A DNA stretch of 32,000 nucleotides from Candidatus Thorarchaeota archaeon (lineage in GTDB: Archaea > Asgardarchaeota > Heimdallarchaeia > Hodarchaeales > Hodarchaeaceae). The translations under genes and the position numbers were made by a program. The DNA is taken from assembly GCA_048882505.1 (NCBI GenBank), contig JBHLRO010000010.1, positions 1-32,000 on the forward strand. Reading direction: 5' to 3'. The notes under the pieces are model-generated. The model worked only from the letters and a program-made list of their open reading frames with translations. It searched no databases and was not told the DNA's origin. Shown here piece by piece: positions 7,691-12,922 of this stretch (position 1 is the first letter of the stretch; each line of letters opens with the position of its first letter).

Positions 7691-7779
7691 GCGGAAAGAA
7701 TTGCGTAATGAATTTAATTTATAAATGATTTATTTATAAATGAGACGAGTAGAAAGAGTGCGTATGGACGTGAGTATTG

Positions 7780-8418
7780 ATGGAAGATGTTAATCAAGAA
7801 GTAGATCTGGGGGAGTTTGTTCCAGAGTATTTATCGAGCCTGGAGGAAACGGTCCTTGAGGAGCTTTCAGTTCGAGAAAAAAATTACTCTTTCCGATTTA
7901 ATGGGTTGCGCCGCCTCTTAAAGGACGTTCATCAGCAGAAATTGACGAAAGCTTTGGAGAGACTTCTTGAAGACGGGTATCTGGAACGCTATCCTGACGG
8001 TGGATATGGTCTGGGTAGAGGAAATGAAGCACAGATACGGAAATATTTCAGGAAGCAAGACGAGAATTACTATGACGCCAATCTGGATTCACAAAGGATC
8101 TATCGAGCGGTTTCCCCCGATCACCGTATACCCGTTCAAAAACTAACTCGAAAACTAGCTGGCAAATATTTTGGAGATTATCGTTTTATTGGCCACTATA
8201 TAGCGAACGGAAAAGGGCGATTAGAATGGCTGAATGCGGACATTCACACGCGGATCTTAATTACAACCATTGATTCGTCTCAAATTGAGGTTAGAACAGA
8301 TAATATTCCATCAAACGACCCTAATCTTAAGAAATTGCTATCTATAATTCAACAAGCCCTCTTGGATGACCATATCATCTTGAGTTTTAGGTTTGTACCC
8401 ACTTCTTCCGCAAACTAA
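7780..8418 (+). CDS. Uncharacterised winged helix-turn-helix domain protein
   Basis: FRFNGLRRLLKDVHQQKLTKALERLLEDGYLERYPDGGYGL has wHTH character. The ORF track starts at TTG 7777 and ATG follows at 7780. Confidence 0.65.
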   Translation: MEDVNQEVDLGEFVPEYLSSLEETVLEELSVREKNYSFRFNGLRRLLKDVHQQKLTKALERLLEDGYLERYPDGGYGLGRGNEAQIRKYFRKQDENYYDANLDSQRIYRAVSPDHRIPVQKLTRKLAGKYFGDYRFIGHYIANGKGRLEWLNADIHTRILITTIDSSQIEVRTDNIPSNDPNLKKLLSIIQQALLDDHIILSFRFVPTSSAN

Positions 8419-8447: not shown

Positions 8448-9647
8448 CTAAAAACTTAATGGCGCAAATGGTATCAATCCCTCCACTATAAGAGTGAAAG
8501 ATGAGAAAATCTCTTGGTCAATAATCCCGGCCTCCCGCTGCGAAAGAAACTCTCCATATTGCTGTTCAAAACGATTCTCGAACAGCTGAATCAAATCAGA
8601 GATTGTTGGATTGATTTCTGTTGAGATTAGGTACATCACGAAATTTGGGTTTGTCCGAATGATCACCAATTGATCTCCGAATGCAATTGATGATAGGCCT
8701 TCCCGGCTTTTCAATGTCTCACTCAATCTGATATTCAGGGCTCCGAACATTCCTCCTAGTAAAACAGATACATCGCCAGAAGATTCTTCTCTTTTCTTAA
8801 AATCATACGAGTAAAGCGTTAACCCTTCAGGACTGACAATCATCAAAGAATTCAATCTTGCAGCTGTTATTGCCAGTAAGGAGGGAAACTTTCTAAAGGC
8901 TGTAGAGAAGCACAAACCCGCTATCGATAGGGGAATTGCGAAAGTAAGGGCTAATTGAAATTCTTCAAAGAAAGGCAGTCGTTGAAGAAGTAACGTAATA
9001 AATGCAAGCACTAATGCGAGATATGCAGCTGGAAAAAACCGAGTTTCCAATTTTGTCGGATCTACCTGAAGCTGTTGAATTTCTCTCAGATCTCGGATAT
9101 ATCGTCCACCAACATACGTGACAAGGCCTATCAAAGTCACTAAGCTTGCAATGACCAAGAAATCGTAGATAATATAGATTGCACCAAAGCGTAAGTTTCC
9201 TGAAAGGACGGCTGGTTGAGAATCTTGATCAAGCCATATATAATCCAGAGAAAGAAAAATGGCTCCTGCAGATAGACCGACCAAACCACCAATGCCAAGT
9301 AGGGTTGAAGACCACTTCTGCGTTGGTTCACGGGGATGTAAATTCCAAAGACCAATTGCAAAGGTTCCAATCCCTGCGATTCCCAAGGTAAATGAGAATT
9401 TATATAGAATCAGAAGGATTTCGTGGAGATTGCTTTCAAGTCCAAGAATTCGGAAAAAGAGTATCAGAGTTACATTAATTATTGGAGCTGTTGGCAAGAA
9501 AAATCCCCAGGCAAAAAATCTAAGGCCTTGGAACGGGTACTTTCGATAGAGATTATATTGCTGAAGCGAAGATATTATAAAAGCGGAAATGCATAAGATT
9601 CCTGAAAATAGATCAAATATGAGTGCCAATTCCAAATTTAGAGGCAT
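8448..9647 (-). CDS. 7-TM membrane protein with C-terminal longin-like domain
   Basis: Seven hydrophobic segments in residues ~5-255. The C-terminal ~130 aa read SLMIVSPEGLTLYSYDF...LLGGMFGALN...SSIAFGDQLVII...FENRFEQQY, a longin-type pattern. Confidence 0.75.
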   Translation of the reverse strand: MPLNLELALIFDLFSGILCISAFIISSLQQYNLYRKYPFQGLRFFAWGFFLPTAPIINVTLILFFRILGLESNLHEILLILYKFSFTLGIAGIGTFAIGLWNLHPREPTQKWSSTLLGIGGLVGLSAGAIFLSLDYIWLDQDSQPAVLSGNLRFGAIYIIYDFLVIASLVTLIGLVTYVGGRYIRDLREIQQLQVDPTKLETRFFPAAYLALVLAFITLLLQRLPFFEEFQLALTFAIPLSIAGLCFSTAFRKFPSLLAITAARLNSLMIVSPEGLTLYSYDFKKREESSGDVSVLLGGMFGALNIRLSETLKSREGLSSIAFGDQLVIIRTNPNFVMYLISTEINPTISDLIQLFENRFEQQYGEFLSQREAGIIDQEIFSSFTLIVEGLIPFAPLSF

Positions 9648-10081: not shown

Positions 10082-12922
10082 ATGATAGATACCACTGAGT
10101 TTAAGGCTTTCTTAAAAGACATTGGCCCCAAGTGGCAGCAGCGATGGGAAGAAGCTGGAGTATTCAACGCAGATCCAGATCCTTCTCGACCAAAATTTTT
10201 CTTGACTTTTCCGTATCCGTATGTGAATGGCTCCGTACACATGGGACACGGTTACTCTATTCTTAAAGTCGATTTCTTGGCCCGTTTGAAGCGGATGCTT
10301 GGATATAATGTACTATTTCCCCAAGGATTTCATGCAACAGGGGAACCAATCGTTGGTATGGCAAAACGTTTACGGGAAAAGGATACAACTCAACAAAGTA
10401 TTCTTAGAACTTTTGGAGTGGAAGATAAGGATTTCGAAAAATTCTACAACCCACGTCACATAGTTGATTTCTTTGTGAAATTAATGACTAAAGATATGAA
10501 AGATATCGGCCTGGCAATTGATTGGAGAAGAAAGTTCATAACGACCCCCATCACACCCGTGTACTCCAGGTTCGTGGAATGGCAGTATTTGACTCTAAAA
10601 GAATTGGGATATGTCAAATTGGGAAGTCACCCAGTCATTTGGTGTCCCAAGGATCAGTCCCCCACCGGAGATCATGATCGCTTGGTAGGCGATGGAGTCA
10701 CTATTGCGGAATATGTCCTGATTAAATTTCCCTATGAGGATAAGTTCTTTCTGCCAGCCACTCTACGTCCAGAGACAACCTTTGGCGTTACAAATATGTT
10801 TCTCCATCCTGAAGCCAAATATGTGACGGCCAAAGTCGATGGTGAAAAGTGGATAGTCTCCCAAGAAACTGTTTTAAAGTTAAAGGATCAGGAACACAGA
10901 GTACAGATTCTATCCACGCACTCCGCAAGAGAATTCTTTGGGAAATATTGTAAAAACCCATTGACTGGAGATGATGTGATAATAGTTCCAGCTACCTTTG
11001 TGGGAGCTGAATGGGGTGCGGGAGTCGTAATGTCTGTGCCCGCTCACGCTCCTGTGGACTGGGTTGCCCTAAAAAATCTTAAAGAAAATGCTGAAGAGCT
11101 GGAAAGGGAATATGGAATTTCCAAACAAGATATCCTATCGATTCATCCAATTTCGTTAATTTCGATAGATGGGTACGGTGAATTTCCAGCAGGAGAGATT
11201 ATTGAGAGAATGGGGATATCTGACCAGAATGATCCGCAGGTTGAGAAAGCTACCAAAGAGATTTATAGAGTTGAATTCCATACGGGAATTTGTAAGGAGA
11301 TTACGGGGAAGTACGGCGGTCGAATGGTAAAAGAGTTAAAGGATGAATTGATCGATGATTTTAAACAACAAGGAATTGCCACTGTATTGTATGAACCAGC
11401 AGAAGAGGTTGTTTGCCGATGTGGTACGCGAAATCATGTGAAGGTACTCAGTGAGCAGTGGTTCTTGGACTATGGAAATCCTAGTTGGAAAAAAGCCGTT
11501 CATCAAGAAATTGAGAGAATGAAGTTCTTTCCTCCAGTCGCTATCGACAGTTTCAAGTTTACTGTTGATTGGCTGAAAGAAAAAGCTTGTGCGAGAAAAA
11601 GCGGTTTGGGAACCCCCTTGCCATGGGATCCAGAGTGGATTGTAGAAACACTGTCAGATTCCACAATCTACATGGCATATTACATTGTTTCAAAATATGT
11701 CAATGAGGGTAAAATTCAGGAAAAAAATGCTGTTCCCCAACTTTTTGATTATGTATTTCGTGGATTACATGATCTGGATAGTACTTCAAAGATATCCAGT
11801 CTGTCTAAGGAGCTAATATCAAATCTGAGGGATGACTTTCTTTATTGGTACCCCATGGATCTTCGTTCTTCCGGAAAAGACTTGATACATAATCATTTGA
11901 CATATTGTTTGTTTCAACATCAAGCGATTTTCAATCCTCAGCACCGTCCTCGTATGATGGGTGTCAACGGACATATGACAGTATCGGGACAAAAGATGAG
12001 TAAAAGCCGAGGAGTTTTGACAGCCCTATCGGAAGCTGTGAAACTTTATTCTGCAGACCTAGCGCGAATTGGTTTGTTAGGGGCTGGGGAAGGATTAGAC
12101 GATGCTAATTTTGTTATAGAGGAATTAGATAGCTATAAACGCTGGCTAGAGCAATTTAAATCGTATTATGAAGATATTCAAACCCGAGAAGAATCTAATG
12201 ATATAGATCGCTGGATAACTAGTAGAATGCAAGGTCACATTAAGGACGGTACCCAGATCGGGGAAGCTTTACAAACCCGATCCTATGTTCAACGGGTGTT
12301 GTTTGGTGTAATGAACGATTTACGTCATTATAAACGCAGATCGCAGACGATTGGACCTGGATTTGTAAAAGCAGTTCAGCAAACTCTCCTACTATTAACA
12401 CCAATGGTTCCCCACTTTTGCGAGGAGTTATGGTCACTGAACCATGATTCAATGGTAGTGTCTCAAAAGTTCCCTATCTGGAACGAATCGCTGATCGATC
12501 AAGCAGCGGAAGCTCGAGAAGAATATATTTCGGATTTGATCAAGGATATTGGCAATATCCAAAAAGCCATGAAATTAGAAAGCATTACCAATATCGAGAT
12601 CACCATAACACCTGTTTGGAAAGAGACTATTCTCAAACAATTCTTGGAAGACAAGAAGAAATTGATACCCCGGATCATGCAGATCTCAGGAATAAAACAG
12701 CACGGGAAGAAAGCCACAAATTACGCCCAAAAACTATTGAAAAGCCATGAACAGGTCCTGCCAGGGTTTCCCAGGGAAGAGGAATACGATGTTATCTCGA
12801 GTGCGATAGAGTTCATTGAAAAAACCACACAGGCGAAAGTTACCGTTAAATACGCTGAAAATTCGGAATCTCCAAAACTAGACTTGGCTGAACCTTTACG
12901 TCCTGCAATTTACATAGAATAA
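10082..12922 (+). CDS. leuS: Leucyl-tRNA synthetase, archaeal/eukaryal type
   Basis: PYPYVNGSVHMGH (HIGH), KMSKS, editing domain ATLRPETTFG...GVVMSVPAHAP-D, SDSTIYMAYY, and the C-terminal AEPLRPAIYIE. Confidence 0.98.
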   Translation: MIDTTEFKAFLKDIGPKWQQRWEEAGVFNADPDPSRPKFFLTFPYPYVNGSVHMGHGYSILKVDFLARLKRMLGYNVLFPQGFHATGEPIVGMAKRLREKDTTQQSILRTFGVEDKDFEKFYNPRHIVDFFVKLMTKDMKDIGLAIDWRRKFITTPITPVYSRFVEWQYLTLKELGYVKLGSHPVIWCPKDQSPTGDHDRLVGDGVTIAEYVLIKFPYEDKFFLPATLRPETTFGVTNMFLHPEAKYVTAKVDGEKWIVSQETVLKLKDQEHRVQILSTHSAREFFGKYCKNPLTGDDVIIVPATFVGAEWGAGVVMSVPAHAPVDWVALKNLKENAEELEREYGISKQDILSIHPISLISIDGYGEFPAGEIIERMGISDQNDPQVEKATKEIYRVEFHTGICKEITGKYGGRMVKELKDELIDDFKQQGIATVLYEPAEEVVCRCGTRNHVKVLSEQWFLDYGNPSWKKAVHQEIERMKFFPPVAIDSFKFTVDWLKEKACARKSGLGTPLPWDPEWIVETLSDSTIYMAYYIVSKYVNEGKIQEKNAVPQLFDYVFRGLHDLDSTSKISSLSKELISNLRDDFLYWYPMDLRSSGKDLIHNHLTYCLFQHQAIFNPQHRPRMMGVNGHMTVSGQKMSKSRGVLTALSEAVKLYSADLARIGLLGAGEGLDDANFVIEELDSYKRWLEQFKSYYEDIQTREESNDIDRWITSRMQGHIKDGTQIGEALQTRSYVQRVLFGVMNDLRHYKRRSQTIGPGFVKAVQQTLLLLTPMVPHFCEELWSLNHDSMVVSQKFPIWNESLIDQAAEAREEYISDLIKDIGNIQKAMKLESITNIEITITPVWKETILKQFLEDKKKLIPRIMQISGIKQHGKKATNYAQKLLKSHEQVLPGFPREEEYDVISSAIEFIEKTTQAKVTVKYAENSESPKLDLAEPLRPAIYIE

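What the first reader, a model, noticed from the sequence alone, without database searches (positions are those of the whole stretch)
8448..9647. Seven-TM receptor-like protein fused to a cytoplasmic longin domain
Seen: seven hydrophobic helices followed by a ~130-aa domain with a longin-type pattern. Established: longin domains are expanded in Asgard archaea, and in eukaryotes they act as small-GTPase GEF/adaptor modules (Mon1-Ccz1, TRAPP, DENN, AP sigma/mu). Inference: a one-piece membrane sensor coupling an extracellular or lipid signal to small-GTPase/roadblock signalling, conceptually a proto-GPCR/GEF. No retinal-binding Lys is present in helix 7, so it is not a rhodopsin.
Basis: partly seen in the sequence, partly recalled or inferred. 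Interest (0 to 1): 0.7.

Follow-up and report, generated by a model that had tools for sequence, protein, structure and literature searches.

The report
Asgard seven-helix membrane protein, longin tail
This gene of a Hodarchaeales (Asgard) archaeon encodes a receptor-shaped seven-helix membrane protein whose cytoplasmic end is a longin domain, the fold eukaryotes use to dock small GTPases. The fusion is real, conserved and unnamed, but what it senses and binds is not shown.

Summary

Full-length orthologues were found only in some genomes of the same genus, and this genome has a second copy on contig C19. The whole 7TM+longin architecture is homologous to a wider, unnamed family (hhalign 98% for the membrane part), and every named member is an Asgard archaeon.

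The GTPase link is only inferred. The genome has about 67 small-GTPase genes, but none lies on the 126-kb contig of this gene or beside its orthologues.

This scan has already noted 7TM-longin fusions in other Heimdall-group genomes. I found no paper describing them.

Verdict: a new domain architecture built from known folds, with the mechanism unproven.

The parts
8448..9647 (-). Whole gene, 399 codons plus stop (stop at 8448-8450)
   Evidence: There are 21 homologues at 45-87% identity.
8877..9647 (-). Seven-helix membrane module, residues 1-257
   Evidence: Hydropathy and the AF2 model. hhalign to the membrane module of distant family members gives 98.3% probability over 226 columns. In shape it is nearest to HisKA_7TM modules and it superposes on GPCRs.
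9567..9629 (-). TM1 (res 7-27), contains conserved Asp12
9444..9509 (-). TM2 (res 47-68), kinked at Pro55, conserved Arg66
9348..9419 (-). TM3 (res 77-100), invariant Tyr82
9246..9305 (-). TM4 (res 115-134), Gly-rich
9108..9179 (-). TM5 (res 157-180), invariant Tyr161 and conserved Asp162. It is preceded by the longest outside loop (135-156), which is variable and is modelled as a beta-hairpin.
8982..9038 (-). TM6 (res 204-222)
8895..8954 (-). TM7 (res 232-251), no Lys
8859..8894 (-). Juxtamembrane linker RKFPSLLAITAA (res 252-263), the most conserved stretch of the protein
   Evidence: Mean top-residue frequency 0.92. Sequence read.
8469..8858 (-). Cytoplasmic longin domain (res 264-393)
   Evidence: Domain model pLDDT 88 with the longin strand/helix order. 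Foldseek and VIA-align best hits are TRAPP Bet5/Trs23, Fuzzy, Mon1-Ccz1, Sec22b and SRX. 6 of 55 relatives hit Pfam Fuz_longin_1.
8451..8468 (-). Conserved extreme C-terminus FAPLSF-COOH. Many distant family members end in [FY][ILF]PL-COOH.
   Evidence: pLDDT is low in the full model.

Best explanation
The gene encodes an integral membrane protein of an Asgard-specific, unnamed family. It has a seven-helix bundle with N-terminus outside, short outside loops and a strongly conserved cytoplasmic face. The bundle runs through a near-invariant 12-residue linker into a cytoplasmic longin domain.

The most likely working model is a membrane-embedded longin platform. The longin domain holds a cytosolic partner at the membrane. 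By analogy with every characterised longin/roadblock platform, that partner would be a small GTPase and/or a second longin/roadblock subunit. The seven-helix module resembles prokaryotic 7TM sensor modules in shape. It would anchor this docking site and probably modulate it, in response to a small or membrane-borne signal rather than a large extracellular ligand.

Shown: the ORF, the helix count, the topology, the longin fold, the family and its Asgard range, and the conservation pattern.

Inferred: partner binding, any GEF/GAP activity, and any sensing.
For: Architecture:
- Seven helices and K+R counts of 13.1 inside against 2.3 outside.
- Six of 55 relatives hit Pfam PF19036 Fuz_longin_1 (best E 2e-9), and a few hit Sybindin or Robl_LC7.

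Conservation:
- Conservation is highest on the cytoplasmic side: loops 0.79 and linker 0.92, against 0.57 for outside loops. This fits a conserved intracellular interface.
- The membrane helices are as conserved as the longin domain (0.72) and carry conserved Asp12, Arg66, Tyr82, Tyr161 and Asp162. This argues that the bundle is more than a greasy anchor.

Membrane module:
- Its nearest shapes in the ESM Atlas are the HisKA_7TM input modules of histidine kinases and GGDEF proteins (TM 0.68-0.71 over 220-231 residues). These are 7TM modules that carry cytoplasmic output domains.

Family:
- The whole architecture is old within Asgard. hhalign between the orthologues' membrane module and that of distant members gives 98.3%. 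A member named as Odinarchaeota aligns over residues 37-372.

Genome and literature:
- The genome is rich in candidate partners: about 67 small-GTPase ORFs and 38 ORFs with this longin type. Twelve of the 38 are fused to polytopic membrane domains.
- Published work describes Asgard RB/longin proteins as dimeric GTPase platforms, and says Asgard GTPase genes are not generally in operons with them (PMC10933270).
Against: - No partner is identified. No small-GTPase gene lies on contig C10 (126 kb) or on the paralogue's contig C19 (79 kb).
- No GTPase or longin/roadblock family is annotated within 6 kb of three homologues in other genomes, and gene order differs between clades.
- Genome-wide, membrane-longin genes are not clearly enriched near GTPase genes: 2 of 12 within 5 kb against a background of 13%, and 6 of 12 within 10 kb against 22% (uncorrected p=0.03).
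- This protein itself matches no curated longin model.
- Longin domains also have roles unrelated to GTPases, for example in SNAREs and coat subunits.
- The membrane module has no sequence homology to HisKA_7TM (hhalign 1.5%), so 'sensor' rests on shape alone.
- The full-length model is only moderate (pLDDT 70).
Confidence: 0.45

Rival explanations
1. Passive anchor or scaffold. The seven helices only tether the longin domain, which acts as an oligomerisation or adaptor module, to the membrane. Nothing is sensed.
For: - The outside loops are short (about 6, 8, 22 and 9 residues) and the least conserved part, so no ligand-binding ectodomain exists.
- The same longin type is appended to very different membrane domains in this genome, including two MFS transporters. 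This suggests a generic add-on module.
Against: - Seven helices with conserved buried polar residues (Asp12, Asp162, Tyr82, Tyr161, Arg66) and conservation of 0.72 are more than tethering needs.
- The whole membrane module has been kept across Asgard classes.
Confidence: 0.2
2. A small transporter or channel, with the cytoplasmic longin domain regulating or sorting it (a 'transceptor'-type arrangement).
For: - MFS transporter-longin fusions with the same domain type exist in the same genome.
- Two conserved acidic residues lie inside helices 1 and 5.
Against: - No similarity to any transporter family by Pfam, NCBIfam or a PDB profile search.
- The nearest shapes are sensor modules and GPCRs, not carriers.
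Confidence: 0.12
3. The longin domain acts without any GTPase. For example, it could bind a peptide motif or coat-like partner, or its own conserved C-terminal tail, as the longin domains of SNAREs and adaptor small subunits do.
For: - A conserved C-terminal PL-containing tail occurs family-wide.
- There is no genomic link to GTPases.
Against: - No SNARE motif or coiled coil is present.
- The best structural and Pfam matches lean towards the GTPase-platform longins: TRAPP, Fuzzy and Mon1. The differences in Z are under 1-2 units, so this is weak.
Confidence: 0.15
4. A true evolutionary homologue or ancestor of eukaryotic GPCRs (a proto-GPCR) that signals to a G protein through its longin domain.
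For: - The loop between helices 4 and 5 is modelled as a hairpin.
- A 2026 preprint reports Asgard 7TM clusters grouping with eukaryotic GPCRs (10.64898/2026.10.28.762692).
Against: - Foldseek E-values are only 2e-3 and worse, with TM 0.3-0.46.
- No DRY, NPxxY or CWxP motif and no Pfam 7tm family hit.
- Prokaryotic HisKA_7TM modules match at least as well.
Confidence: 0.05

Closest known systems
Longin subunits of eukaryotic GTPase platforms: TRAPP Bet5/TRAPPC1 and Trs23/TRAPPC4, Fuzzy-Inturned and Mon1-Ccz1 first longin domains
   Different: The eukaryotic proteins are soluble subunits of multi-protein complexes. Here the longin domain is the C-terminal tail of a seven-helix membrane protein. 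Identity is 9-16%, this protein itself hits no curated model, and GEF activity is untested.
Prokaryotic 7TM sensor modules with cytoplasmic output domains (Pfam HisKA_7TM PF16927; 7TMR-DISM_7TM PF07695)
   Same: Seven helices followed by a cytoplasmic domain. These are the nearest predicted shapes in the ESM Atlas: TM 0.68-0.71 (HisKA_7TM) and 0.62 (7TMR-DISM) over about 215-230 residues.
   Different: No sequence relationship. PF16927 finds two true members in this genome but not this gene, 0 of 45 family members hit it, and hhalign probability is 1.5%. The output is a longin domain, not a kinase, GGDEF or DUF835 domain.
Eukaryotic G-protein-coupled receptors
   Different: No sequence similarity and no class A motifs. 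The 'transducer' side is a covalently fused longin domain. Heterotrimeric G proteins are not known in archaea (general knowledge).
Asgard longin/roadblock proteins and longin-GTPase fusions (Klinger et al. 2016 as cited in PMC4917890; Liu et al. preprint 10.1101/2020.10.19.343400; Tran et al. 2024, PMC10933270; PDB 8yqg)
   Different: The published architectures are soluble: stand-alone, or fused to GTPases, TRAPPC3 or two-component domains. None of the papers I could search describes fusion to a seven-helix membrane module.
SRP receptor alpha SRX domain with SR-beta; longin SNAREs (Sec22b, VAMP7)
   Different: In the SRP receptor the GTPase carries the anchor, not the longin domain. SNAREs have an N-terminal longin domain, a SNARE motif and one C-terminal helix. 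Here the order is reversed, there are seven helices, and there is no SNARE motif.

Membership tests
Longin domain fold | Element order strand-strand-helix-strand-strand-strand-helix-helix, without the N-terminal helix of roadblock | tested here: met
   DSSP of the domain model (pLDDT 88.4): E7-14, E20-25, H35-55, E63-66, E69-75, E80-85, H90-112, H121-137.
Longin domain fold | Whole-domain superposition on solved longin domains | tested here: met
Longin domain fold | Match to a curated longin sequence model (Pfam Fuz_longin_1, Sybindin, Longin etc.) | tested here: inconclusive
   This protein has no hit at E<=10. Of 55 aligned relatives, 6 hit PF19036 (best 2.2e-9), 3 hit Sybindin and 4 hit Robl_LC7. 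The PDB profile search gives Trs23 at E 0.17.
Longin domain fold | Binds or regulates a small GTPase (GEF/GAP platform) | not testable with these tools
   No partner identified. No GTPase gene on contig C10 or C19.
Eukaryotic GPCRs | Seven TM helices, N-terminus outside, C-terminus inside | tested here: met
Eukaryotic GPCRs | Structural similarity above what helical bundles reach by arrangement alone | tested here: inconclusive
Eukaryotic GPCRs | Family sequence signatures (Pfam 7tm models; class A DRY, NPxxY, CWxP) | tested here: not met
   No Pfam hit. Motifs absent.
HisKA_7TM (PF16927) / 7TMR-DISM sensor modules | Match to the Pfam model or profile-profile homology | tested here: not met
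   0 of 45 members hit at E<=0.1. The PF16927 genome search finds two other genes but not this one. hhalign A4 against A5 gives probability 1.5%.
HisKA_7TM (PF16927) / 7TMR-DISM sensor modules | Seven-helix bundle of similar shape followed by a cytoplasmic output domain | tested here: met
   TM 0.68-0.71 over 217-231 residues to HisKA_7TM-bearing clusters, and 0.62 to 7TMR-DISM. The output domain here is longin.
Microbial rhodopsins | Schiff-base Lys in the middle of helix 7 | tested here: not met
   No Lys in residues 232-251.
Unnamed Asgard 7TM-longin family | Homology over both the membrane module and the longin domain | tested here: met
   21 full-length homologues and 92 representative hits, several spanning residues 35-397. 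hhalign on the membrane module gives 98.3%. Three Atlas clusters share the whole shape at TM 0.57-0.68.

The most novel reading that the evidence does not exclude
This would be a one-piece archaeal receptor-regulator. A signal sensed in or at the membrane by the seven-helix bundle changes how the fused longin domain binds or activates one of the cell's many lipid-anchor-less small GTPases. The GTPase is thereby recruited to, and switched on at, a defined membrane site. [quoted passage not shown]
Probability: 0.15. Interest if true: 0.85.

Novelty: new variant of a known kind. Interest (0 to 1): 0.55.

Why it matters
Asgard archaea encode dozens of Rab/Arf/Rag-like GTPases and longin/roadblock proteins. 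How these soluble switches are tied to membranes is an open question for the origin of eukaryotic membrane traffic, because prenylation machinery has not been found in Lokiarchaeum (Table 1 of PMC4917890).

A conserved family in which the longin platform is itself built into a receptor-shaped membrane protein offers a concrete, testable candidate for that link. This genome has 12 membrane-longin fusions, which suggests the solution is general rather than a one-off.

If the domain turns out to bind no GTPase, the family would still show that longin was used as a general cytoplasmic tail for membrane proteins before eukaryotes existed.

Tried and rejected
1. Complex prediction with two copies of the longin domain (alignment A3) gave a score of 0.17, below the mark of 0.42. 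The tool returns no verdict, so this is neither for nor against dimerisation.

2. The look-up of sequencing runs listed no RNA holder. The DNA holders are sediment and other metagenomes, one of which may be the source. This says nothing about expression.

The cross-genome neighbourhood test was therefore replaced by an own-genome test.

4. A Rosetta-stone test was prompted by earlier scan notes on longin-Arf-7TM operons. Several GTPase genes in this genome do sit beside polytopic membrane genes. Profile-to-sequence hhalign found no relation between those membrane proteins and this family's membrane module (probabilities 0.1-0.7%). It also found none for the other five 7TM-longin ORFs of this genome. 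A single-sequence target makes this an insensitive test, so the result is inconclusive.

5. A PDB sequence-profile search with the membrane module gave only chance-level rows (best E 0.039, a phosphate transporter).

6. The sigma-70 promoter/terminator scan is uninformative for an archaeon.

7. Literature searches found no description of a 7TM-longin fusion (papers read). The supplementary tables of Liu et al. are not held, so an asCOG entry for this family cannot be excluded.

8. Rhodopsin was rejected because there is no Lys in helix 7.

Full report
**The gene.** The minus strand of 8448-9647 carries an intact 399-codon ORF with an ATG start. It lies tail-to-tail with an unannotated 213-aa ORF (7777-8418, +). 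It is transcribed divergently from leucyl-tRNA synthetase (10082-12922, +). An Hsp20 gene and a proteasome beta/alpha pair lie nearby. Neither Pfam nor NCBIfam matches the protein, even at E 10.

**Membrane module.** A Kyte-Doolittle scan gives seven hydrophobic segments. An AlphaFold2 model built on 22 homologues (pLDDT 70, pTM 0.65) shows seven long helices at the same positions, with a hairpin in the loop between helices 4 and 5.
- In an alignment of 21 homologues, the loops after helices 1, 3, 5 and 7 carry on average 13.1 Lys+Arg, against 2.3 in the other loops. The topology is therefore N-out/C-in.
- The predicted cytoplasmic loops are the best conserved parts (0.79). The 12-residue linker after helix 7 is the most conserved stretch (0.92).
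- The helices (0.72) are as conserved as the C-terminal domain (0.72). The short outside loops are the most variable part (0.57).
- Conserved polar residues inside helices include Asp12, Arg66, Tyr82, Tyr161 and Asp162.
- Helix 7 has no Lys, and there is no DRY, NPxxY or CWxP motif.

**C-terminal domain.** Residues 258-399 were folded alone on a 55-sequence alignment. The model is confident (pLDDT 88.4, pTM 0.82) and has the longin element order.
- Foldseek against the PDB returns 12 hits at E<=1e-3, all but one longin proteins: Mon1-Ccz1, AP2 mu, TRAPP, MON1A, Fuzzy and COPI.
- At sequence level, 6 of 55 relatives hit Pfam Fuz_longin_1 (best 2.2e-9) and a few hit Sybindin or Robl_LC7. This protein itself hits none. 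A profile search of PDB sequences gives Trs23 at E 0.17.
- The fold assignment is therefore firm. Assignment to a particular longin subfamily is not.

**Family and range.** The word-indexed search found 21 homologues at 45-87% identity. All are 'hypothetical'. The named ones are Hodarchaeales/Hodarchaeota, plus one labelled Promethearchaeota.
- One homologue (P0013) is a second copy in this same genome, on contig C19, at 59% identity. A tree places the window copy with P0002/P0003 and the C19 copy with P0012/P0016.
- Among 301 sampled genomes of the phylum, full-length matches (E<1e-100) occur only in 6 of 21 genomes of the same genus. One of those has two in-frame stops.
- The exhaustive representative search found 92 proteins. 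Most are 355-385 aa with about seven hydrophobic segments and the same C-terminal domain, and several align over residues 35-397. Named distant members come from Hodarchaeales, Promethearchaeota, Odinarchaeota and Baldrarchaeia.
- hhalign between the membrane module of the orthologues and that of the distant members gives 98.3% probability (E 2e-14) over 226 columns. The fusion as a whole is therefore ancestral to the family.
- A shape search of the ESM Atlas finds three unnamed clusters (70, 134 and 79 members), overwhelmingly archaeal and mostly Promethearchaeota. They share the whole architecture at TM 0.57-0.68.

**What the membrane module resembles.**
- In the ESM Atlas the nearest shapes are prokaryotic HisKA_7TM input modules of histidine kinases, GGDEF and DUF835 proteins (TM 0.68-0.71), and then 7TMR-DISM (0.62).
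- This is shape only. PF16927 finds two genuine members in this genome but not this gene, and no family member hits it. hhalign between the two profiles gives 1.5%.
- The module is thus an orphan at sequence level, with the general build of a 7TM receptor module.

**Genomic context and the GTPase question.** This genome has 38 ORFs with this longin type. Seven have about seven helices in front. Five have 10-13 helices, and two of those five are MFS transporters. It also has about 67 small-GTPase ORFs.
- None of the GTPase ORFs lies on the window's 126-kb contig or on the paralogue's 79-kb contig.
- Across the 12 membrane-longin genes, proximity to GTPase genes is not convincingly above background: 2 of 12 within 5 kb against 13%, and 6 of 12 within 10 kb against 22% (uncorrected p=0.03).
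- Neighbourhoods of three homologues elsewhere contain no GTPase or longin/roadblock family. Two of them are syntenic with the C19 copy rather than the window copy.
- This absence of operon linkage matches what was published for the cultured Lokiarchaeon MK-D1 (PMC10933270). It does not argue against a functional link, but it gives none.

**Mechanism.** My best reading (confidence 0.45) is a membrane-embedded longin platform. The cytoplasmic longin domain docks a soluble partner, and the seven-helix module anchors it and probably modulates it.
- In favour: the conserved cytoplasmic face, the conserved buried polar residues and the sensor-like shape.
- Against: the lack of any identified partner.
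- Rivals: a passive anchor (0.2); a non-GTPase longin role, possibly using the conserved C-terminal tail (0.15); a transporter with a regulatory longin tail (0.12); and true GPCR ancestry (0.05).

**Novelty.** Both folds are known, and longin expansion in Asgard archaea is well documented. I found no paper describing a seven-helix-longin fusion. A 2026 preprint mentions Asgard 7TM clusters that group with GPCRs but makes no link to longin. Earlier notes of this scan describe the same kind of fusion in other Heimdall-group genomes, and the C19 paralogue in this genome. My independent tests agree with their cautious readings. I class it as a new variant (a new domain architecture) of known kinds.

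Noticed in passing
G000 contig C19:20736-21932 (-) (locus L002:1492-2688): A second copy of this gene in the same genome (398 aa, 59% identical, identical to P0013). Its neighbours, a 369/390-aa unknown protein and a ~240-aa unknown protein, are syntenic with homologues P0004 and P0019 in other genomes. Those two loci also carry a 1216-aa DUF362 protein and UbiA.
   Followed up: partly
G000 C13:65672-67360 (+) and C1:178312-180141 (-) (loci L005, L009): MFS-type transporters of 562 and 609 aa that end in the same longin-type domain. Three further 10-13-helix proteins (C30:24715-27294, C1:71173-72903, C13:60811-62490) carry it too.
   Followed up: partly
G000 C2:269079-270875 (+) and C2:271198-271737 (+) (locus L011): A 598-aa protein with this longin domain in its middle (res 299-432) is followed about 320 bp downstream, on the same strand, by a Rab-like small GTPase gene. 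This is the only tight longin-GTPase gene pair seen in this genome.
   Followed up: no
window 8451-8468 (-), and the C-termini of alignment A3: The extreme C-terminus is conserved: FAPLSF-COOH in the subfamily and [FY][ILF]PL-COOH in many distant members. It could be a docking motif or the cap of the last helix.
   Followed up: partly
G127:C9:418642-419802 (another genome of the same genus): The orthologue there is interrupted by one TGA and one TAA, so it may be a pseudogene or an assembly error.
   Followed up: no
window 7777-8418 (+): A 213-aa ORF with no Pfam match converges on the gene with a 29-bp gap. It has no counterpart beside the homologues examined in other genomes.
   Followed up: partly
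G000 C18:13117-15197, C7:18071-19952, C23:25013-27760, C4:31927-34137: Small-GTPase genes sit directly beside same-strand polytopic membrane-protein genes (5-8 predicted helices). The one on C23 is a GTPase-longin fusion. No sequence relation to the window's membrane module was detected.
   Followed up: partly
G000 C1:287154-289898: Two adjacent genuine HisKA_7TM (PF16927) genes of about 613-626 aa, conserved in most genomes of the genus.
   Followed up: no
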